A stretch of DNA of 64,000 nucleotides from an uncultured Gammaproteobacteria bacterium (GTDB lineage: Bacteria; Pseudomonadota; Gammaproteobacteria; UBA9214): NCBI GenBank assembly GCA_963748215.1, contig CAVVHS010000008.1, positions 288,001 to 352,000 on the forward strand, in the 5' to 3' direction. Numbering within the stretch: the first letter of the stretch is position 1; each line of letters starts with the position of its first letter. The translations under genes were made by a program, and so were the position numbers. The notes under the pieces are model-generated. The model did no database searches. It worked only from the letters and a program-made list of their open reading frames with translations, and was not told the DNA's origin. Below, piece by piece: positions 3,577 to 13,399 of the stretch.

Positions 3577-5508
3577 TCATGCACGCGCGGCACGCTGCAC
3601 CGTCCAGTCACTGGCCGCGAGAAATTCGAAAAATTCATCCGCCGGCAGCGGGCGGCTGATCAGATAGCCCTGCACCATGTCACAGCGCATGGCTTGCAGC
3701 ACGGCCAGCGTCTCCTCGGTTTCCACGCCTTCCGCGATGGTTTTCAGGCCCAGGTTGTGGGCCAGGTCGATCGTGGATCGGACGATTATCGCGTCATCGC
3801 TGTCACTCACCATATCCCTGACGAACGAGCGATCGATCTTCAGCTTCTGCACCGGCATCCGTTTCAGGTAACTGAGCGAGGAGTAGCCGGTACCGAAATC
3901 ATCAATGGACAACTGCACGCCCATAGCGTGCAATCGGTTCAGGATTTCCTGGCTTTGCTCGGGATCCGTCATCACGGCGCTCTCGGTAATCTCAAGCGTC
4001 AGCTGGTGCGCGTCGAGTTCGTGGTAGGCAAGAATTTCCGCCACCTGCTCCGGCAGCTTGTCGTCCCTGAGGTTATGGGCGGAAAGATTGACTGCGACAG
4101 TGAGCCGGTAACCGGCCCGCTCGCAGTGCATGCAAAACCTGACTGCGTGCTCGATCATCTGCAGCGTGAACTGCTTGATGAGTCCGGTCTGTTCGAGGAT
4201 GGGAATGAATTCGACCGGTGAGACCGGTCCGTGCCCGGGCTTCACCCAGCGTGCCAGCGCCTCCGCTCCGACGATCGTTCCGCTTTGCAGGTCGACCTTG
4301 GGCTGGAACGCTGCGCCTATATCCCACTGCTGAATGGCAACGTGCAGGTCACTGATCAGGTCGAGCCGCTGTGGATTATTGGTGTCCAGCCTGGCATCGT
4401 AGACGCAAATATCGTTGCGATTGCGCTTGGCGATGTACATCGCGACATCAGCGCATTTCAGCAGCGCGGAGGGTTGCTCGCCGTGCTCCGGATAGATGGC
4501 GATACCCATGCTGACCCCGACCGAGCAGGCCGTCTGCCCGATGAGTACCGGCGCCTTCAGGGTGGCACCGAGCTGCTCGGCCACGGCAAGCGCCTCGCGC
4601 TTGTCGGTCGCCGGTATCACCACGGCGAACTCGTCTCCACCCAGCCGGCCGATGGTATCTTCTTCCCGGAGAACACTCCTGAAGAGGCCGCCGATCCTGA
4701 TCAGCAACTGGTCGCCCATGACATGCCCCAGCGTGTCGTTCACCTCCTTGAAATGATCGAGGTCGATCATGATCAGCGCAACACCATGGCGGCCATGTCG
4801 TGCGGATATCATCGACTGCTGCAGGCGGTCAAGGATCAGCGTCCGGTTCGGCAGGCCGGTCAACGGATCGTGTACCGCGAGATGCTTGAGTTCGCGGTTG
4901 GCCGATACCAGCTTATGGTTGAGCCTTTCGAGCTTTTCCTTATAGGCCTCGGCGGCCAGCCTGGCTGACTGGAGTTCCTCGAATGACATGGCGTTCTCGA
5001 TCGCGATACTGACCTGACCGGCAAACAGCGAGAGCAATTCCATGTCTTCCTCGTTGAACTCACTGCCGTCCAGCTTGTTGATGCAGGCAATGCCACCGAG
5101 GAAGCGGTGTTTACCGACCAGTGGCACCAGAATCAGCGACCCGGCCTCTTTTTCCCACTGGTTGCGTTCGCTATCGTCCAGCATCTCTATCATCCCGCGC
5201 CACCAGGCACGGCGATGGCGCAACACCCAGCCGCACAGGCCAACCTCGATGGGCAGCTCGGCGCCGAGCAGTTCGTCGGCACTGACGCCGCACGCCGCAC
5301 GATAGATATAGCTGTTGCAGTCGTCGGACATGATCGGAATGGAGACGGTCTCGACCCGCAGCAGTTGCGAGGCACTGCAGGCGACGTGGTCGAACACCTT
5401 CTGCAGATTATGCTCGCCACCGATCATCTGCGTGATCTCGCTGAGCAGATGGATCTCCTGTTCTTTTTGCCTTAGCTGTGCCGCCAGGGATTGTTTGCTT
5501 GTTGCCAC
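3577..5508 (-). CDS. GAF-GGDEF-EAL c-di-GMP signalling protein
   Basis: GAF, coiled coil, HDPLTGLPNR, RLGGDEF, EAL, IDDFGTGYSSL motifs. Confidence 0.95.
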   Translation of the reverse strand: MATSKQSLAAQLRQKEQEIHLLSEITQMIGGEHNLQKVFDHVACSASQLLRVETVSIPIMSDDCNSYIYRAACGVSADELLGAELPIEVGLCGWVLRHRRAWWRGMIEMLDDSERNQWEKEAGSLILVPLVGKHRFLGGIACINKLDGSEFNEEDMELLSLFAGQVSIAIENAMSFEELQSARLAAEAYKEKLERLNHKLVSANRELKHLAVHDPLTGLPNRTLILDRLQQSMISARHGRHGVALIMIDLDHFKEVNDTLGHVMGDQLLIRIGGLFRSVLREEDTIGRLGGDEFAVVIPATDKREALAVAEQLGATLKAPVLIGQTACSVGVSMGIAIYPEHGEQPSALLKCADVAMYIAKRNRNDICVYDARLDTNNPQRLDLISDLHVAIQQWDIGAAFQPKVDLQSGTIVGAEALARWVKPGHGPVSPVEFIPILEQTGLIKQFTLQMIEHAVRFCMHCERAGYRLTVAVNLSAHNLRDDKLPEQVAEILAYHELDAHQLTLEITESAVMTDPEQSQEILNRLHAMGVQLSIDDFGTGYSSLSYLKRMPVQKLKIDRSFVRDMVSDSDDAIIVRSTIDLAHNLGLKTIAEGVETEETLAVLQAMRCDMVQGYLISRPLPADEFFEFLAASDWTVQRAARA

Positions 5509-6066: not shown

Positions 6067-7654
6067 GATAGTGTTGAAAAACACCTCATCAGGAAGAGCG
6101 CATGAGATAATGTCGCTGCGTTTAAACATATGAGGATTCTCGCCCATGATGGGTCAGTTACCCGCTGCGCAAAATGCCTTGTTTTACGATTTTTGTCTTG
6201 AACGCCGCATTCCCTCCGATCATCTTCTCCGTCAAATAGACCAGTTCCTCGACTTCGACCAGATTCGCCAGCACCTCCAGCCTTTCTATAGCACCACCGG
6301 CCGTCCTTCCATCGATCCGGAGCTCATGATCCGGATGCTGCTGGTGGGCTACTGCTACGGTATCCGCTCAGAGCGCAGGCTCTGCGAAGAAGTGAACTTC
6401 AACCTGGCCTACCGCTGGTTTTGTCGGCTAGGGTTGGAGGCCGATATGCCTGATCATTCGACCTTCTCCAAGAACCGTCATGGACGCTTCCGGGAAGCGG
6501 AGACATTCCGCTATGTCTTTGAACAGGTGCTTAAACGCTGCATGGTGGAAGGCCTGGTCGGGGGTGAGGGTTTTGCCGTGGATGCGAGCATCGTGAAGGC
6601 GGATGCCAGCCGCCAACGTCATCGGGATGACGATGATGATTGGGGTGGTGGCCGTGCGGTGCGTGAGTACCTCGATGCACTGGACGAGTCTGCTTCGCAG
6701 GCCGGTAAGTCAGCACGGAAGATCTCGCCGACGGACCCGGCGGCCAGTTACACAGCAGCACCGGGTGGTCCGGCATTCTATGCCTACTCAAACAATTACC
6801 TGGTTGATACCGGCCATGGGATCATCATGGATGTCGAGTCGACCACGGCCAATCGGACACAGGAGGCTGAATCGACCAAGACCATGGTCGATCGGGTCGT
6901 GAATCGATTCGGGATCAAACCAAAACGCCTGATCGGCGATACTGCTTACGGCACAGCGGCCATGCTCAACTGGATCGTCGAGATAAAGCAGATCGAGCCA
7001 CACACACCCGTGTGGCAGAAGTACGAAGGGGAAGCAGGAATGTTTGGGATGGCTGACTTCACTTGGGATGCCGAGACTGACCGTTACTTGTGTCCGGCAG
7101 GAAAGTTGTTGCAACGCTATCGACGCGACCTAAAAAAAATAAACGCACCGGCATCACAAAGGCCAATACCATTATATACCGTGCCACTGAACACGATTGT
7201 GGAGACTGTGAATACAAATCACGCTGTTGCCCTAAAGTACCTCGGCGCAAAATCACCCGGAGTATTTACGAGTCGTCGCGCGAAGTGGCCCGTGCAACCG
7301 CACAAACACCTGCTTACAAGAAGTCACGCCTTCAACGAAAGAAAGTGGAGATGCTGTTCGCGCACATGAAGCGCATATTAAAGCTGGACCGTCTACGATT
7401 GCGTGGTATGAGCGGTGCGCATGATGAGTTCCTGCTGACAGCAACAGTACAAAACTTACGCAGGATGGCGAAACTGCTCAGTCAACCACCACCAGACCGC
7501 AGGATAGGTGCGCTCGCATGACAGAAAATCAACCGCTTTAACCACCAAAGTCCATCATCTGAACCGGTGATGGCACTTCAAGAAGATCACCCCTTGGCTG
7601 ATGACTTGCCGCGGCTACCGCCATCATCCAAATAGCGACTTTTTCAACACTATC
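6067..7654 (+). mobile_element. IS1182-family insertion sequence
   Basis: TIR GATAGTGTTGAAAAA / TTTTTCAACACTATC; 4-bp DR GGAC at 6063-6066 and 7655-7658. Confidence 0.9.
6146..7521 (+). pseudogene. IS1182 transposase split by a -1 frameshift
   Basis: GRPSIDPELMIRML, PDHSTFSKNR in ORF 6146-7369; C-terminus (RKKVEMLFAHMKR...QNLRRMAK) in ORF 7090-7521; shift at the A8 run 7132-7139. Confidence 0.85.
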
Positions 7655-8183
7655 GGACAACAGTTGCCATTCCCCTCGACACAGAAAACCCGCTGATGCG
7701 GGATTCCTAATTGGCGACTATCGATTCAAGCCGGATGTTTAGCCGCTTCTTATATCAACGATCACTTATCGGGAAAGAGCGACTACTTCCCGATGTTTTC
7801 AAACTGTCATTCGCTCGGCTTCAATAACATGTTCTCGTTCTGTTGCCAGCACCGCTTCGCCATTACCACGTAGCGTCTCTGCAAAAGTATTCTAATCGCC
7901 CTGTCGACACTGTTTCTCACCAATGCGTCTCACAAATAGTTCTGTCTATATTTGTGAACTGGATCATGCATGAATAATCTGGATTGGTCGATTTAATATA
8001 TGACGTTACGGAAGACGCCGTATTTATAAACCCCACATGTTGGGTGCTGTGTGCATGGCATCCGTCTCCATCGACTGATTAATCGCTAATGCGCTCAGCT
8101 TGGTGGCGGTCGCTACCGGCGGGGGCACGTAAACGGCACAGTCTCCCGGCCATGCCGATTTTATAGTCAACAGAGGAATTACG

Positions 8184-8891
8184 ATGAAAACTATCAGTCA
8201 ACTTCCCATCAGAGCCTTGGTTATAGTCACGATAGCCGCCATTGTTGGGTTGGGTGCCAGCAGTGCATATGCCGCCTCGGTCTACTTCTTGCAGATCGAC
8301 GATATCAAAGGCGAAGCCACTGAACGATCCCATAAGGACTGGATAACGATCAACAGTTTTTCATGGGGAATCAACAACCCCGGATCGGTTGGAACAGGCG
8401 GCGGAGCATCTTCCGGCAAGGCAATACTCTCTCCATTCTCCTGGACACAGTTCCTCGATATGAGTGTACCGCCGATGTTTGTGGGGGTTGCATCCGGGAA
8501 GCATTACTCGAAGGCGACACTGGATGTACAGAATGTAGCAGCGGGGACAGCAGGTGTGTATTTCCAAATGGTATTCGAGGATGTGCTTCTGACCTCACTA
8601 AACATTAGTGGTGCTGGTGATATTCCGGGCGTTTCCGGGGCGCTTGAATATTCGAAGGTCACCATGACCTATCGGCAGCAAAAAGCTGATGGCAGTTTTA
8701 ACACGCCGATCATTGGCGGTTGGGATTTGAAGAAAAACACTGCTGATGCGTTTTTTGGTTCACCGGCAGTACTACAAGGCCTGATCTTGGCAGGACCGAC
8801 GCCGGCCGCAGTACCGGTGCCTGCGGCGATATGGCTCTTCGGCTCCGGCCTGCTGGGACTAGTCGGCATTGCAAGACGCAAGAAAGCCTAA
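8184..8891 (+). CDS. Signal peptide + Hcp (T6SS tube-like) domain + VPxPA-CTERM sorting signal
   Basis: Signal ending AYA-A; YFLQIDDIKGE..H.DWI.I.SFSWG...GGGASSGK...SGKHY...Y.QQKADGS...GWDLKKN as in Hcp; tail VPVPAAIWLFGSGLLGLVGIARRKKA. Confidence 0.88.
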   Translation: MKTISQLPIRALVIVTIAAIVGLGASSAYAASVYFLQIDDIKGEATERSHKDWITINSFSWGINNPGSVGTGGGASSGKAILSPFSWTQFLDMSVPPMFVGVASGKHYSKATLDVQNVAAGTAGVYFQMVFEDVLLTSLNISGAGDIPGVSGALEYSKVTMTYRQQKADGSFNTPIIGGWDLKKNTADAFFGSPAVLQGLILAGPTPAAVPVPAAIWLFGSGLLGLVGIARRKKA

Positions 8892-8905
8892 CCAGTTACA
8901 AAACA

Positions 8906-8929
8906 GCGGCTCCTTCGGGAGCCGTTTTT
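8906..8929 (+). terminator. intrinsic terminator
   Basis: GCGGCTCC-TTCG-GGAGCCGT + T run. Confidence 0.9.
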
Positions 8930-9308
8930 CATTACGCGGTATGTCTGAGTTTGGCCGGCTCCAGTTCTGCGCCACTGCTTATTTGGGAAATCAGTAAGGC
9001 ACAGTAACTTACCCATTCCTGACGATCCATGTCTAAGACCAAACAGTACGCGTCATTAATGTGCTACAGATTCTGTTTTATTGGCCGAATATCATGCCGG
9101 TACTGATGGTATTACCTGACTATAAATAATAACTGCGAGTAACACGGAGCATGACAAGCAGATTATCCGAACCTGCATTAACAATGCCCGACAAGATGAA
9201 CGGCTACTGGAAACAGCAGGTGTCTTACAAAAGACATCCACGGAGCGTTGCAGTCGGCTCTGCGGTTCATAAACGCCAGGACGCCTTTATCAAACAAGGA
9301 GAATTAAC

Positions 9309-9965
9309 ATGAGATTTACCGTGAATAAATCACGACTTATTGGCACAGTATGCGCTACAGCGTTTAGTTTTATCGCTGCGCCAATGGCCGCGAACGCAGC
9401 CATTATTGACTTTGAAGATATCTCCATCCCTGCAAGCAGCATTAGCGGACCATCGCAAACATCCGGAGGTTACTCGTTCGTGAACACCACAACCACGAAT
9501 GACGACATATTAGCTGTGCGGCTATCATCGGCATGCGCAGGTGGATGCGTTGATAACGGCACGCAGTATCTCGCAGTCTTTAATTCAGATCAGACCGGAC
9601 CATTCGAAGTCGAAATGACACGCAATGGTGGTGGGTTATTTGATCTACTTAGCTTCGACTTTGCGTCGTTGTTCAAATTTGTTCCCGCTTCAGGTACCGA
9701 AGTGCTGGACGTTATCGCTACAGCGCCAGGGGGCGTAACCGTTTCGCAGCGTTTCAACTACGACAACATAGGCGACGAATTTCAAATTGCAATGCTTGGT
9801 AGTCAGTTCTCGGGCCTGCAATCCGTCTTGTTTAGCTCCCAGTTTATTTTTCCAGCTTATGACAACATTGAGGTCTCAGCAGTCCCTATCCCCGCAGCCG
9901 TCTGGCTTTTCGGCTCTGGCCTGCTGGGTCTAGTTGGTATAGCAAGGCGCAAGAAAGTAGCTTAG
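9309..9965 (+). CDS. VPxPA-CTERM (PEP-CTERM-like) surface protein
   Basis: Signal ending ANA-AIIDFED; tail VPIPAAVWLFGSGLLGLVGIARRKKVA; RBS AGGAG. Confidence 0.9.
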   Translation: MRFTVNKSRLIGTVCATAFSFIAAPMAANAAIIDFEDISIPASSISGPSQTSGGYSFVNTTTTNDDILAVRLSSACAGGCVDNGTQYLAVFNSDQTGPFEVEMTRNGGGLFDLLSFDFASLFKFVPASGTEVLDVIATAPGGVTVSQRFNYDNIGDEFQIAMLGSQFSGLQSVLFSSQFIFPAYDNIEVSAVPIPAAVWLFGSGLLGLVGIARRKKVA

Positions 9966-9986
9966 TCCTTTCGGCACTCATACTAA

Positions 9987-10010
9987 GCGGCTCCTTGGGG
10001 AGCCGTTTTT
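9987..10010 (+). terminator. intrinsic terminator, near-copy of 8906
   Basis: GCGGCTCC-TTGG-GGAGCCGT + T run. Confidence 0.9.
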
Positions 10011-10170
10011 GATTGTGCTGAATGTCCATTTGTGGCTGCCGGTTCCTTTCCTACAGGATTGTCTTATATTAAGATTCCGTTCAACTGGGGTGACGTCGAC
10101 TTCAAGCCGACCCATCTAAGACATTTCGGCAAAATTATCTAAACGGCAGAAAGGCAAGCGGAAAGCGGAC

Positions 10171-12205: not shown

Positions 12206-13399
12206 ATGCCTCTGGTTTATATGGCTGACATGTTGCATCACGCGTACGAGAACAACTATGCCGTAGGTGCTTTCGATGTAGTGAGCCTGGATTTTATTTC
12301 AGGGGTTATGGCAGCCGCCGAGGAAAAACACGCGCCGGTTATCATCAGCTTGGCTGAATCTCACTTTGAATACTTCGATTTTGAACTACTCATGGCGTCG
12401 GTGGTAAAGGCAGCGGAACGCTCAACTATACCTGTGGCGATTCATCTGGATCACGGCGAATCCCTTGAGTCAGCCGTGTGTGCGATTAACCTTGGCTGCA
12501 CCGGCATCATGGTCGATGCGTCAAATCTGCCTCTAGATAAAAATATCGCTCTAACACGGACCGTAGTTGACATGGCCCATGCCTGCGGCATCCCTGTTGA
12601 GGGGGAGCTGGGCTATGTACCTGGAGTGGAAGGCGAGGATGCTGAACGTCACCCCGGAGATGTTCAATATACGACTGTCGACGAGGCAAGACGCTATATC
12701 GATGAGACCGGCGCAGATTTCCTGGCTGTCTCCATAGGTACAGTTCACGGTCGAATGAAAGGTGAGCCGAAGCTTGATATCGAGCGTCTCGCGCAGATCA
12801 ACCAGGCCCTGAAACTGCCACTCGTGATCCATGGAGGAACCGGGTTGCGTGATGACCAGTACAGGAGTCTCGTCGATAACGGTGTTACCAAAATCAATTA
12901 CTACACGGCTCTGGCCGATGTGGCAGGACAATGTATAAAGGGCAACGTAGAAACAGAAACGAATTGCAACTATACAAGCTACATAGACGGCATAGCTGGG
13001 GCAGTACAGCAGGAAGCAGGACGTTGCATTGACATCTGGGGTTGCTCAGGACGTGCCAGCTCAATGCTCGCGAGCTGTCGCCCGTGGCTTCCTGTCGAGC
13101 ATGTGATATTTTTCAACACTGGAAAGCTTGATGCAGCTGCAACAGAAGATATGATGTCCGAGGGTAGACGGGTCCTTGGCAGTATACCGGGTGTACAACG
13201 GGTATTTACCGGTCACGCTGTCACCGAGGATAGCCCTTATAGGCATTGTTGGATGGTGCAATTCTCTGCCCGTCCTGTTATCGATAGCTATCGCGAGCAC
13301 CCAGCGCACCAACACTTTGCTGACAGTCGCTTTCGTCCCCACGCTGGTGATCGCCTGAGTATCGATTTCGAAGCGTGCAGCACGAAAGAAATAACATAA
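12206..13399 (+). CDS. class II fructose-bisphosphate aldolase with C-terminal Dabb-like domain
   Basis: AIHLDHG, VEGELG, LAVSIGTVHG, LVIHGGTG, KINY; tail HVIFF...IPGV...YREHPAHQHF. Confidence 0.88.
   Translation: MPLVYMADMLHHAYENNYAVGAFDVVSLDFISGVMAAAEEKHAPVIISLAESHFEYFDFELLMASVVKAAERSTIPVAIHLDHGESLESAVCAINLGCTGIMVDASNLPLDKNIALTRTVVDMAHACGIPVEGELGYVPGVEGEDAERHPGDVQYTTVDEARRYIDETGADFLAVSIGTVHGRMKGEPKLDIERLAQINQALKLPLVIHGGTGLRDDQYRSLVDNGVTKINYYTALADVAGQCIKGNVETETNCNYTSYIDGIAGAVQQEAGRCIDIWGCSGRASSMLASCRPWLPVEHVIFFNTGKLDAAATEDMMSEGRRVLGSIPGVQRVFTGHAVTEDSPYRHCWMVQFSARPVIDSYREHPAHQHFADSRFRPHAGDRLSIDFEACSTKEIT

What the first reader, a model, noticed from the sequence alone, without database searches (positions are those of the whole stretch)
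8184..8891. Hcp tube domain with a Sec signal and a VPxPA-CTERM anchor: possible T6SS-independent surface Hcp
Seen: signal peptide, a full-length Hcp-like domain, a short linker, then VPVPA + TM + RRKK, with no T6SS genes in the window. Known: canonical Hcp has no signal peptide, forms hexameric rings in the cytoplasm and exits through the T6SS; PEP/VPxPA-CTERM tails mark exosortase substrates. Inference: a phage-tail/T6SS tube fold repurposed as an envelope-tethered ring or lattice, for example a decoy for effectors or phage, or a matrix scaffold. This is the strongest candidate for an undescribed system here; I cannot verify that it is unreported.
Basis: partly seen in the sequence, partly recalled or inferred. 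Interest (0 to 1): 0.85.

Follow-up and report, generated by a model that had tools for sequence, protein, structure and literature searches.

The report
Exosortase-sorted Hcp protein without T6SS
A protein with the fold of the type VI secretion tube subunit carries an export signal and a cell-surface sorting tail instead, in a bacterium that has no type VI machinery; it belongs to a sizeable, unstudied family, which suggests this tube fold has a second life outside the cell.

Summary
ORF 8184-8891 (+, 235 aa) has a signal-peptide-like N-terminus, a full-length Hcp domain (Pfam 1.9e-27; AF2 pLDDT 87.9; best PDB match P. aeruginosa Hcp1), a conserved structured linker and a VPLPA-CTERM tail above NCBIfam's cut-off. 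The 95%-complete genome gave no TssB, TssC, TssF or VgrG match. It has one exosortase, an XrtA-EpsI fusion beside PrsR and PrsT, and about 19 other CTERM-tailed proteins.

It is a cargo of the known PEP-CTERM/exosortase system, not a new system. It belongs to a family of at least 101 tail-bearing Hcp clusters, and all sampled members fall outside a well-supported clade that holds all 35 canonical Hcps sampled.

Five other genomes with such a gene have it as their only Hcp. None of the five has TssC and four have exosortase. In the window's genus, TssC occurs only in the two genomes with a short, signal-less Hcp.

Relatives include 2x and exactly 6x tandem-Hcp extracellular proteins, which argues that ring assembly is kept. 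In print I found only a Methods line that filters such genes out.

Ring formation, surface location and function remain inferred. Verdict: real, a new variant of known kinds, moderately to highly interesting.

The parts
8123..8138 (+). sigma-54-like -24/-12 element GGGCACGTAAACGGCA, 61 nt upstream of the ATG (weak lead only)
   Evidence: scores 17 of 19.5 on a simple weighted consensus. 5.9% of 5000 random 250-bp genome windows reach that score. 3 of 19 CTERM genes reach it.
8172..8177 (+). Shine-Dalgarno AGAGGA, 6 nt before the ATG
   Evidence: Read from the sequence.
8184..8273 (+). signal-peptide-like N-terminus, residues 1-30, predicted cleavage after AYA
   Evidence: 94 of 101 tail-bearing family members have an N-terminus that passes my signal-peptide regex. 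AF2 models residues 7-22 as a helix. SignalP was not available.
8274..8747 (+). Hcp (TssD-fold) domain, residues about 31-188
   Evidence: Pfam PF05638 E 1.9e-27, residues 35-163 = profile 1-129/129. AF2 model. Foldseek best hit 1y12 Hcp1.
8748..8810 (+). conserved family-specific linker, residues 189-209: AFFGSPAVLQGLILAGPTPAA (strand 190-192, helix 196-203)
   Evidence: Conserved in alignments A1/A2/A3. pLDDT 96 for residues 191-200. A regex for the motif hits 77 of 101 members; the 24 misses show a similar L..L[FY]..G[LM].GP by eye. The motif is absent from the canonical Hcps in A1.
8811..8825 (+). sorting motif VPVPA, residues 210-214
   Evidence: TIGR03370 VPLPA-CTERM 29.7 bits, above its 25.35 cut-off, residues 210-234.
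8826..8891 (+). C-terminal transmembrane helix AIWLFGSGLLGLVGI, basic cluster ARRKKA and stop codon
   Evidence: AF2 models helix 214-234.
8905..8926 (+). intrinsic-terminator-like hairpin followed by a T-run, so the gene looks monocistronic
9309..9965 (+). neighbouring, unrelated VPLPA-CTERM protein (218 aa) with a near-identical tail and terminator module
   Evidence: TIGR03370 31.5 bits; NF038120 46 bits, below its cut-off of 80. The tail plus terminator DNA is 84% identical to that of the Hcp gene. It is not a conserved neighbour in other lineages.

Best explanation
The gene encodes a T6SS-independent, exported Hcp-fold protein that is a cargo of the genome's XrtA/PEP-CTERM sorting system.

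Proposed path:
1. The N-terminal signal takes the precursor through Sec and is cut after residue 30.
2. The precursor stays held in the inner membrane by its C-terminal helix.
3. The exosortase (here an XrtA-EpsI fusion, the only one found) cuts at the VPVPA motif and passes the protein on to the cell surface or exopolysaccharide matrix, as proposed for other PEP-CTERM proteins.
4. Outside the cytoplasm the Hcp domain most likely still assembles into six-membered rings and acts as a structural element of the surface or matrix.
5. The conserved linker helix positions the ring relative to its anchor.

Shown here: the domain architecture, the fold, the presence of exosortase and paralogous cargo, the lack of T6SS core matches, the family-wide conservation of the architecture, and its separation from canonical Hcps on a tree.

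Inferred: Sec export, cleavage by XrtA, final location, ring assembly and the structural role.

My odds for the sub-claims: exported exosortase cargo that works without a T6SS, about 0.85; forms rings, about 0.5; structural or matrix role, about 0.35.
For: Architecture and fold:.

Own genome (95.28% complete):
- One exosortase match. It scores as XrtA (TIGR03109 216.8 bits, cut-off 208) with an EpsI domain.
- PrsR (TIGR02915, 691 bits) and a PrsT-like TPR protein flank it.
- 19 CTERM-tailed proteins by regex.
- 0 matches to TssC, TssF, Phage_GPD/VgrG and TssB. The Hcp gene is the only PF05638 match.

Control within the genus (37 genomes including G000):
- Hcp domains occur in 4 genomes and TssC in 2.
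- The 2 with TssC (G007, G025) are the 2 with short, signal-less Hcp. In each, tssC lies within about 500 bp of hcp.
- The 2 with a signal-bearing Hcp (G000; G003) have no TssC match.

Family:
- 2473 proteins at E<=1e-3 and 11948 representatives at E<=1e-3.
- Of the 267 proteins fetched, 101 are single-domain and tail-bearing: 58 VPxPA-type and 43 PEP-type. 94 of the 101 have a signal-like N-terminus. Median length is 236 aa.

Other genomes:
- I classified 80 loci (kept from 112 relatives). Six carry signal + Hcp + PEP-CTERM: L112, L113, L136, L157, L174, L180.
- In the 5 whole genomes tested, TssC was found in 0 of 5 and exosortase in 4 of 5.
- In all 5 the tailed gene is the only Hcp-domain match.

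Tree of 139 Hcp domains:
- One branch (SH-aLRT 97) holds all 35 canonical rows and none of the 22 VPxPA, 28 PEP or 8 two-domain rows.
- The window sits in a 19-row clade (SH-aLRT 96), 18 of whose rows are VPxPA-type.

Ring inference:
- 38 relatives have exactly six tandem Hcp domains.
- The 3-, 4- and 5-domain counts are mostly truncated fragments or undercounts. Intact proteins have 1, 2 or 6 domains, with two possible exceptions noted in the Against line.
- Six stretches each were confirmed by Pfam in 6 of 6 tested. These proteins also carry Ig-like, cadherin-like, RTX and serralysin-C domains or a Planctomycete extracellular signal.
- AF2 of a 998-aa six-domain protein gave pLDDT 80.0 and pTM 0.75. 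That fits a fixed arrangement of the domains.

Occurrence and possible expression:
- A DNA contig from a second study spans 7600-8931 with 1 difference.
- Contigs of two RNA libraries from two studies lie on 8172-8556 at 98-100% identity.
Against: - Nothing here shows ring assembly, cleavage or location.
- NCBIfam pairs VPLPA-CTERM tails with exosortase XrtD. This genome's only exosortase scores 129.6 bits on the XrtD model (cut-off 400), and no second match exists. Sorting by XrtA is therefore an inference; 5% of the genome is unassembled.
- The generic PEP-CTERM models fall just below their cut-offs.
- The gene is accessory. No other genome among the 36 congeners has a tail-bearing Hcp. In a 401-genome class sample only G000 has one.
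- It lies beside a frameshifted IS element.
- It has no conserved neighbour and is not linked to EPS genes.
- The six-domain proteins are analogies, not the nearest kin. Two of the four sampled fall on the canonical side of the tree.
- Two apparently whole proteins do not fit a 1, 2 or 6 count. P0162 has five domains detected. P0204 has three domains followed by a C-terminal stretch that may be frameshifted.
- The model's coordinates were not returned, so ring closure in the P0236 model was not seen, only pTM.
- The canonical rows on the tree were picked by similarity to the query. The tree is a quick LG+G4 search with SH-aLRT support only.
- RNA-library contigs have depth 2 and may be DNA carry-over.
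- The sigma-54-like site is no better than about 6% of random windows.
- One of the five other genomes (G440) shows no exosortase. It does have 16 PEP-CTERM-type matches, and its completeness was not reported.
Confidence: 0.5

Rival explanations
1. It is a monomeric or otherwise non-ring surface protein. The Hcp beta-barrel would be just one more small, stable, secretable scaffold among the many unrelated passenger domains of PEP-CTERM proteins. It would act as an adhesin or matrix-binding unit without hexamer formation.
For: PEP-CTERM cargo is highly diverse. This genome has about 19 unrelated tail-bearing proteins, and 16-35 tail matches occur per genome in five others. The family has its own C-terminal helix, not found in the canonical Hcps aligned in A1, which could cover a former interface. 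No oligomer evidence was obtained.
Against: Copy numbers of tandem Hcp domains in nearly all intact relatives are 1, 2 or 6. That is hard to explain without a six-fold assembly. The two-domain, PEP-CTERM-tailed proteins group with the tail-bearing family on the tree. The glycine-rich loop and core columns shared with canonical Hcp are kept.
Confidence: 0.22
2. It is a periplasmic or inner-membrane-tethered Hcp ring that is never released to the surface. For example, it could hold or guide exported cargo or polysaccharide in the periplasm, much as cytoplasmic Hcp holds effectors in its lumen.
For: The C-terminal helix would anchor it in the inner membrane after Sec export. The expected VPLPA-specific exosortase XrtD is missing, so the tail might not be cut. 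Relatives exist with an N-terminal membrane anchor or signal and no tail at all, e.g. P0232-P0234 and P0201.
Against: About 19 proteins in this genome share the same VP[VIL]P[AP] tail, with only XrtA present. XrtA is therefore the likely processing enzyme for all of them. [quoted passage not shown]
Confidence: 0.13
3. It is a decoy or trap displayed on the envelope. The ring would mimic a tail tube or T6SS tube and soak up incoming T6SS effectors or phage components.
For: Only the general fact that canonical Hcp rings bind effectors in their lumen (established knowledge; abstract of PMC8262886). The gene is accessory, patchily distributed and next to an IS element, as many defence genes are.
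Against: Nothing in the data points to defence. No defence genes were identified beside it among the flanking ORFs scanned, and no partner is conserved. Not tested against PADLOC.
Confidence: 0.05
4. It is an artefact or relic: a mis-called start on a decaying T6SS hcp, with a chance hydrophobic tail.
For: The gene lies next to a broken IS element. One homologue in a MAG (L171, 57% identity) is frameshifted.
Against: Both the N-terminal signal and the tail are conserved across 101 clusters down to about 30% identity. The gene has a good Shine-Dalgarno and a terminator. The same sequence occurs in DNA runs of two studies. No start codon lies at the position where canonical Hcps begin.
Confidence: 0.02

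Closest known systems
T6SS tube protein Hcp/TssD (e.g. P. aeruginosa Hcp1, PDB 1y12)
   Same: Same fold and same Pfam family (PF05638, full-length match). 31% identity and target TM 0.87 to 1y12. The glycine-rich loop and core columns are shared with canonical Hcps.
   Different: It has a signal peptide, a conserved extra C-terminal strand and helix, and a sorting tail. It is below the NCBIfam TssD cut-off (40.9 vs 58.9). It lies outside the clade that holds all 35 canonical Hcps sampled. Its genome gave no TssB, TssC, TssF or VgrG match.
PEP-CTERM / VPLPA-CTERM exosortase cargo (Haft et al. 2006 system; PepA of Zoogloea and Aquincola is the studied example)
   Same: Signal peptide plus a C-terminal PxP motif, transmembrane helix and basic cluster. 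The genome has XrtA-EpsI, PrsR, PrsT and many paralogous tails. It is a stand-alone gene, as is usual for such cargo.
   Different: The passenger domain is an Hcp fold, which no paper I could find describes. It is not a PepA relative: NF033554 scores 33.1 against a cut-off of 80, that profile's C-terminal half hits 16-35 tail proteins per genome, and a true PepA has no Hcp Pfam match. The tail is VPLPA-type, yet no XrtD is present.
Specialised ('evolved') Hcps with C-terminal extensions (PMC8262886)
   Same: An Hcp core followed by a C-terminal extension.
   Different: In those proteins the extension is a toxin domain delivered by the T6SS (abstract and passages). Here it is a sorting signal, there is an N-terminal signal peptide, and no T6SS was found. 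That study removed PEP-CTERM-bearing Hcp genes from its tree (Methods passage).
Six-fold tandem Hcp proteins with RTX, Ig-like or cadherin-like extensions or a Planctomycete extracellular signal
   Same: Hcp domains used in proteins with hallmarks of export by routes other than the T6SS.
   Different: Six domains in one chain of 900-2200 aa. They carry different export signals and no exosortase tail. Two of the four sampled lie on the canonical side of the tree.

Membership tests
Hcp fold family (Pfam PF05638 T6SS_HCP) | Full-length match to the family HMM above the gathering score | tested here: met
   96.5 bits against a cut-off of 23.5, profile positions 1-129 of 129.
Hcp fold family (Pfam PF05638 T6SS_HCP) | Hcp beta-barrel fold | tested here: met
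   AF2 pLDDT 87.9. Foldseek best hit is 1y12; 72 hits at E<=1e-3 and every listed hit is an Hcp or Hcp fusion.
Functional T6SS tube protein TssD | Match to NCBIfam TIGR03344 (TssD) above its cut-off | tested here: not met
   40.9 bits against a cut-off of 58.9.
Functional T6SS tube protein TssD | No signal peptide; made and assembled in the cytoplasm | tested here: not met
   A signal-peptide-like N-terminus of 30 residues, conserved in 94 of 101 family members. Judged by heuristic only.
Functional T6SS tube protein TssD | T6SS core genes (TssB, TssC, TssF, VgrG) in the same genome | tested here: not met
   0 matches for PF05591, PF05943, PF05947 and PF05954 in a 95.28%-complete genome. The same TssC search finds tssC next to hcp in two congeners.
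Functional T6SS tube protein TssD | Hexameric ring that stacks into a tube | not testable with these tools
   No usable oligomer result was obtained. The only support is indirect, from the 1, 2 or 6 tandem copy numbers in relatives.
PEP-CTERM / VPLPA-CTERM exosortase cargo | Sorting domain at the extreme C-terminus (PxP-type motif, transmembrane helix, basic cluster) above a curated cut-off | tested here: met
   TIGR03370 29.7 bits against 25.35, residues 210-234 of 235. The generic PF07589 and TIGR02595 models fall just below their cut-offs.
PEP-CTERM / VPLPA-CTERM exosortase cargo | N-terminal signal peptide | tested here: met
   Sequence inspection and regex. SignalP was not available.
PEP-CTERM / VPLPA-CTERM exosortase cargo | Exosortase gene in the genome, with several paralogous tail-bearing proteins | tested here: met
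   One exosortase, an XrtA-EpsI fusion. 19 tail-bearing proteins by regex.
VPLPA-CTERM / XrtD subsystem (NCBIfam TIGR04152) | VPLPA-specific exosortase XrtD present | tested here: not met
   The only match is the XrtA gene, at 129.6 bits against a cut-off of 400.
PEP-CTERM / VPLPA-CTERM exosortase cargo | Cleavage at the motif and transfer to the surface or matrix | not testable with these tools
   Needs biochemistry.
Flocculation protein PepA (NF033554) | Match above the equivalog cut-off over the whole profile | tested here: not met
   33.1 bits against 80, and only profile positions 132-261 are matched. That part of the profile matches tail proteins generically.

The most novel reading that the evidence does not exclude
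Hcp has a second, T6SS-independent life as an extracellular building block. On this reading, an old and separate clade of Hcp-fold proteins is exported by general routes. Those routes are Sec plus exosortase here, and RTX/type I-like signals, Planctomycete extracellular signals, and simple signal peptides or membrane anchors in Actinomycetes and ammonia-oxidising archaea elsewhere. Outside the cell these proteins would assemble into six-fold rings or tubes that organise the cell surface or exopolysaccharide matrix. Single-chain six-domain versions would be covalent hexamers. The window's protein would then be the exosortase-anchored form of an unrecognised class of matrix proteins derived from phage-tail and T6SS tubes.
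Probability: 0.35. Interest if true: 0.8.

Novelty: new variant of a known kind. Interest (0 to 1): 0.62.

Why it matters
Hcp is treated as a hallmark of the T6SS. Genome annotation names these proteins 'type VI secretion system effector' or 'tube protein' (source names; automatic cluster name). Hcp in culture supernatant is the standard read-out of T6SS activity (established practice, recalled).

A sizeable clade of Hcp-fold proteins that carry their own export and sorting signals, and that occur in genomes without a T6SS, has three consequences:
- Such annotations, and T6SS inferences based on hcp alone, are wrong for this clade.
- The tube fold has been recruited to the extracellular space at least once, and probably several times.
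- PEP-CTERM cargo, whose functions are almost all unknown, gains a member with a well-understood, self-assembling fold. That gives a handle on what exosortase cargo does in flocs, granules and sediment biofilms.

A cultured carrier, Pelomonas sp. Root1444 (L113), makes this directly testable.

Tried and rejected
Oligomer prediction:
- The accepted job, four copies of residues 31-205 with alignment A3, scored 0.14 and 0.12 against a mark of 0.42. That is 'no answer', and no controls were run. I draw nothing from it.

Locus hunting:
- Alignments A1 and A4 were too diverse to give search patterns.
- A2 was swamped by tail-only matches; none of the 80 kept loci covered the Hcp core.
- The single-protein query found 3 distant hits only.
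- The one metagenome scan returned 80 loci at 30-41% identity. None was a close relative, and I did not classify them further (the first try found the machine busy).
- As a result, the gene neighbourhood of the close VPxPA subfamily remains unknown.

Sigma-54 promoter: the site at 8123-8138 scores 17 of 19.5. 5.9% of random windows do as well, and only 3 of 19 CTERM genes reach it. Not significant.

PepA kinship: rejected.

Composition: GC is 0.47-0.53 across the gene and 0.58-0.62 in the upstream GGDEF-EAL gene. Downstream genes are also 0.39-0.53, so there is no clear island signal.

Class sample: 12 Hcp-bearing stretches were fetched, 11 picked for long open frames (200 aa or more) plus G007's short-frame Hcp. 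None carries a tail. One (G349) has a Tat- or signal-like leader plus linker plus Hcp.

Read laying: stretches without RNA-library cover (7600-8171 and 8557 onward, apart from a tail-like piece at 9897-9931) are not interpreted. The joint 10071>8832 seen in one DNA contig probably reflects the repeated tail module.

No sigma-70-like promoter was found upstream of the gene by the simple scan.

A Pfam call exceeded the size limit and was resent with fewer proteins.
Full report
**1. The observation**

- Window 8184-8891 (+) is an intact 235-aa ORF with an ATG start. An AGAGGA ribosome-binding site lies 6 nt upstream, and a hairpin plus T-run terminator follows at 8905-8926.
- Pfam's T6SS_HCP model matches residues 35-163 over its whole length (1-129 of 129) at E 1.9e-27, 96.5 bits against a cut-off of 23.5.
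- NCBIfam's VPLPA-CTERM sorting-domain model matches residues 210-234 at 29.7 bits against a cut-off of 25.35. The generic PEP-CTERM models fall just under their cut-offs.
- The first 30 residues have basic residues, a hydrophobic core and an AYA|A site. I could judge this only by eye and with a regex, because no signal-peptide predictor was on hand.
- An AF2 model built on a 93-row family alignment has mean pLDDT 87.9 and pTM 0.78.
- Foldseek against the PDB returns only Hcp or Hcp-fusion chains among the listed hits, 72 at E<=1e-3. The best is P. aeruginosa Hcp1 (1y12; E 3e-15, target TM 0.87, 31% identity).
- One refinement: the 'short linker' (residues about 189-209, AFFGSPAVLQGLILAGP...) is modelled as a strand plus helix with pLDDT 96 for residues 191-200. 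It is conserved across the family.

**2. The genome around it**

*Neighbouring genes*
- Upstream lie a GAF-GGDEF-EAL protein (3577-5508, minus strand) and a frameshifted IS element (6146-7521).
- Downstream lie a second, unrelated VPLPA-CTERM protein (9309-9965), an unassigned 169-aa ORF, a TetR regulator and a class II aldolase.

*Taxonomy*
- The window is part of a 3.52-Mb, 9-contig genome scored 95.28% complete.
- The nearest hits to its aldolase (85-88% identity) are MAGs labelled Thiogranum, Ectothiorhodospiraceae or Gammaproteobacteria. That is only a rough placement.

*T6SS genes*
- The genome holds one Hcp-domain gene, this one.
- It gave no match to TssC, TssF, Phage_GPD/VgrG or TssB.

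*Exosortase system*
- The genome holds one exosortase. This scores as XrtA (216.8 bits, cut-off 208) fused to EpsI.
- The PEP-CTERM-box response regulator PrsR (691 bits) and a PrsT-like TPR protein flank it.
- A regex finds 19 credible CTERM-tailed proteins, mostly VP[VIL]P[AP]-type. Two VPEP-type ones lie beside xrtA.
- NCBIfam pairs VPLPA tails with exosortase XrtD, but no XrtD is present. The only match to the XrtD model is the XrtA gene, at 129.6 bits against 400.

**3. A control within the genus**

- All 37 genomes of the genus were searched. Four have an Hcp domain and two have TssC.
- The two with TssC, G007 and G025, are exactly the two with a short (156- and 161-aa frame), signal-less Hcp. 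In both, tssC lies within about 500 bp of hcp.
- The other two Hcp carriers have no TssC match. They are G000 and G003. G003 has a signal peptide, an acidic linker and an Hcp of a different subfamily, with no tail.
- So the search finds a T6SS in this lineage where one exists, and signal-bearing Hcps occur without it.
- These are four related genomes, so this is an illustration, not a statistic.

**4. The family**

*Size and make-up*
- A word-indexed search found 2473 proteins at E<=1e-3. About 45 of the listed cluster representatives cover the whole query at 38-98% identity. Almost all are metagenomic and carry no name or are named 'Hcp'.
- An exhaustive phmmer search of 1.84 billion representatives gave 11948 hits at E<=1e-3 and 95 at E<=1e-30.
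- Among the 267 proteins fetched, 101 are single-domain and tail-bearing: 58 VPxPA-type and 43 PEP-type. 94 of the 101 have a signal-like N-terminus, and the median length is 236 aa.
- The ESM Atlas holds a 57-member cluster in which 100% carry T6SS_HCP and 98% carry PEP-CTERM.

*Tree of 139 Hcp domains* (IQ-TREE quick search, LG+G4, SH-aLRT support only)
- One branch with support 97 holds all 35 canonical rows, 18 rows with an N-terminal extension and no tail, and 12 six-domain rows.
- None of the 22 VPxPA, 28 PEP or 8 two-domain rows lies in that clade.
- The window lies in a 19-row clade with support 96, 18 rows of which are VPxPA-type. That clade is nested among PEP-type rows.
- One origin of the tailed family is therefore not ruled out.
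- Caveats: the canonical rows were chosen by similarity to the query, and the tree is unrooted.

**5. Co-occurrence in other genomes**

- A scan of 185,579 species genomes with an Hcp-only alignment kept 80 loci of 112 relatives. I classified all 80.
- Six encode signal + Hcp + PEP-CTERM: four Rhodocyclaceae or Azonexus MAGs, one Ferribacterium MAG, and the cultured Pelomonas sp. Root1444. For L112 and L113, Pfam confirms both domains.
- A seventh locus (L171, 57% identity) is frameshifted.
- Five of the six genomes were searched whole:
  - TssC was found in 0 of 5.
  - Exosortase was found in 4 of 5. The fifth, G440, still has 16 PEP-CTERM-type matches, and its completeness was not reported.
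  - In all five the tailed gene is the only Hcp-domain match.
- No flanking gene is shared between the window, L113 and the Rhodocyclaceae group. The gene is stand-alone cargo.
- In a class-level sample of 401 genomes, 87 have an Hcp domain, a count that includes the unpublished G297. Only G000 has a tailed one.

**6. Do these proteins still form rings?**

- I have no direct evidence; the multimer job gave no answer (see Tried and rejected).
- Indirect evidence comes from copy number. 38 relatives of 900-2200 aa have exactly six tandem Hcp domains with 15-25-residue spacers.
- Proteins counted with 3-5 domains are mostly fragments that begin or end inside a domain, or they reach six at a looser threshold. 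Two possible exceptions remain, P0162 (five domains) and P0204 (three).
- Otherwise, intact proteins have 1, 2 or 6 domains. The two-domain ones carry signal peptides, and six of them carry PEP-CTERM tails.
- Pfam confirms six stretches in 6 of 6 tested. It also shows Ig-like, cadherin-like, RTX and serralysin-C domains, or a Planctomycete extracellular signal, in these proteins. These are hallmarks of extracellular proteins exported by other routes.
- AF2 of P0236 (998 aa, six domains, 25-row alignment) gave pLDDT 80.0 and pTM 0.75. That fits a fixed arrangement of the domains. I could not inspect the coordinates for ring closure.

**7. Occurrence and possible expression**

- Five DNA runs from two studies (marine and sediment metagenomes) hold 84-94% of the sampled words of 7600-10100.
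- A 1466-nt contig from the second study spans 7600-8931 with one difference.
- Two metatranscriptome libraries from two further studies each give two 151-nt contigs on the gene. Together these cover 8172-8556 at 98-100% identity.
- The depth is 2, and DNA carry-over cannot be excluded.

**8. Mechanism**

- The best-supported reading has four steps:
  1. Sec export.
  2. Retention in the inner membrane by the C-terminal helix.
  3. Cleavage at VPVPA by the XrtA-EpsI exosortase.
  4. Delivery to the cell surface or exopolysaccharide matrix, as proposed for PEP-CTERM proteins.
- There the Hcp domain, probably as six-fold rings, would serve a structural role.
- The studied PEP-CTERM protein PepA is needed for floc formation and is processed at both ends (PMC9850573, passages read).
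- PepA is not a relative of this protein.
- Everything after 'has the signals' is inference.

**9. What is known**

- I ran seven full-text searches: Hcp + PEP-CTERM; PepA + Zoogloea + PEP-CTERM; Hcp + signal peptide + exosortase; T6SS_HCP + PEP-CTERM; Hcp domains + tandem + type VI secretion + hexamer; TssD + exosortase; Hcp + T6SS-independent + signal peptide.
- They found no description of this family.
- The only mention is a Methods sentence in PMC8262886. [quoted passage not shown]
- PMC12019908 reports T6SS_HCP-domain proteins in the extracellular metaproteome of Accumulibacter granules (passage read). Whether they carry tails is in a supplement that I could not open.
- The library lacks most subscription journals, so 'not found' is not 'not in print'.

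**10. Verdict**

- The feature is real and non-random.
- It is not a new system. It is an unexpected passenger, the T6SS tube fold, in a known sorting system.
- It represents a sizeable, phylogenetically separate, functionally unstudied and probably mis-named family: a new variant of known kinds.
- The wider pattern is the more interesting lead. It comprises exported Hcp domains in one, two and six copies, in bacteria lacking a T6SS, in Actinomycetes and in ammonia-oxidising archaea.

Noticed in passing
proteins P0121-P0132, P0134, P0135, P0137, P0138 and others; loci L134:7739-13447 and L177:222-3386: 38 proteins (900-2200 aa) carry exactly six tandem Hcp domains. Pfam confirmed six stretches in 6 of 6 tested. 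These proteins also have Ig-like, cadherin-like, RTX and serralysin-C domains or a Planctomycete extracellular signal. AF2 of P0236 gave pTM 0.75. They look like covalent pseudo-hexamers exported by routes other than the T6SS. I found no paper on them.
   Followed up: partly
proteins P0193, P0199, P0217, P0237, P0255, P0265 (411-441 aa): Signal peptide + two Hcp domains + PEP-CTERM tail. Their first and second domains form separate groups on the tree, so the duplication is old.
   Followed up: partly
L114:6106-6732; L117:9854-10468; L141:2106-2753; L179:3256-3804 and 3826-5031: Hcp domains sit behind a Tat- or signal-like leader or an N-terminal membrane anchor in an Actinomycetes MAG and in Nitrososphaera and Nitrosopumilales archaea, lineages not known to have a T6SS (recalled). 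The Atlas also lists a 52-member, mainly archaeal Hcp cluster.
   Followed up: no
L356:1321-1917 (G003, same genus): A 198-aa protein with a signal peptide, an acidic D/N-rich linker and an Hcp domain of a different subfamily, with no tail. Its genome has no TssC match.
   Followed up: partly
window 8790-8940 and 9865-10020: The tail-coding DNA plus terminator hairpin of the two adjacent CTERM genes is 84% identical, and nearly identical over the membrane helix and the hairpin. This suggests a shared or exchanged 3' module. One DNA contig joins 10071 back to 8832.
   Followed up: partly
whole genome G000; exosortase at G000:C4:17519-18964 (-): About 19 proteins carry VPLPA-type tails, but the genome has only an XrtA-type exosortase and no XrtD. 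This departs from the pairing implied by the NCBIfam model names.
   Followed up: partly
window 6146-7521: An IS element (DUF772 + DDE transposase) split over two overlapping frames, apparently frameshifted, about 660 bp upstream of the Hcp gene.
   Followed up: no
L171:9905-10517: A 57%-identical homologue in a gammaproteobacterial MAG is split over two frames. It is either a pseudogene or a long-read assembly error.
   Followed up: no
L132:9986-14156: In an uncultured Actinomycetes MAG a canonical 161-aa Hcp is followed by a 1220-aa protein with an N-terminal Hcp domain, which looks like a specialised Hcp. Several Actinomycetes MAGs carry short Hcps.
   Followed up: no
window 12206-13399: A class II fructose-bisphosphate aldolase fused to a C-terminal Dabb (stress-responsive alpha/beta barrel) domain. 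The fusion is conserved at 85-88% identity in Thiogranum-like MAGs.
   Followed up: no
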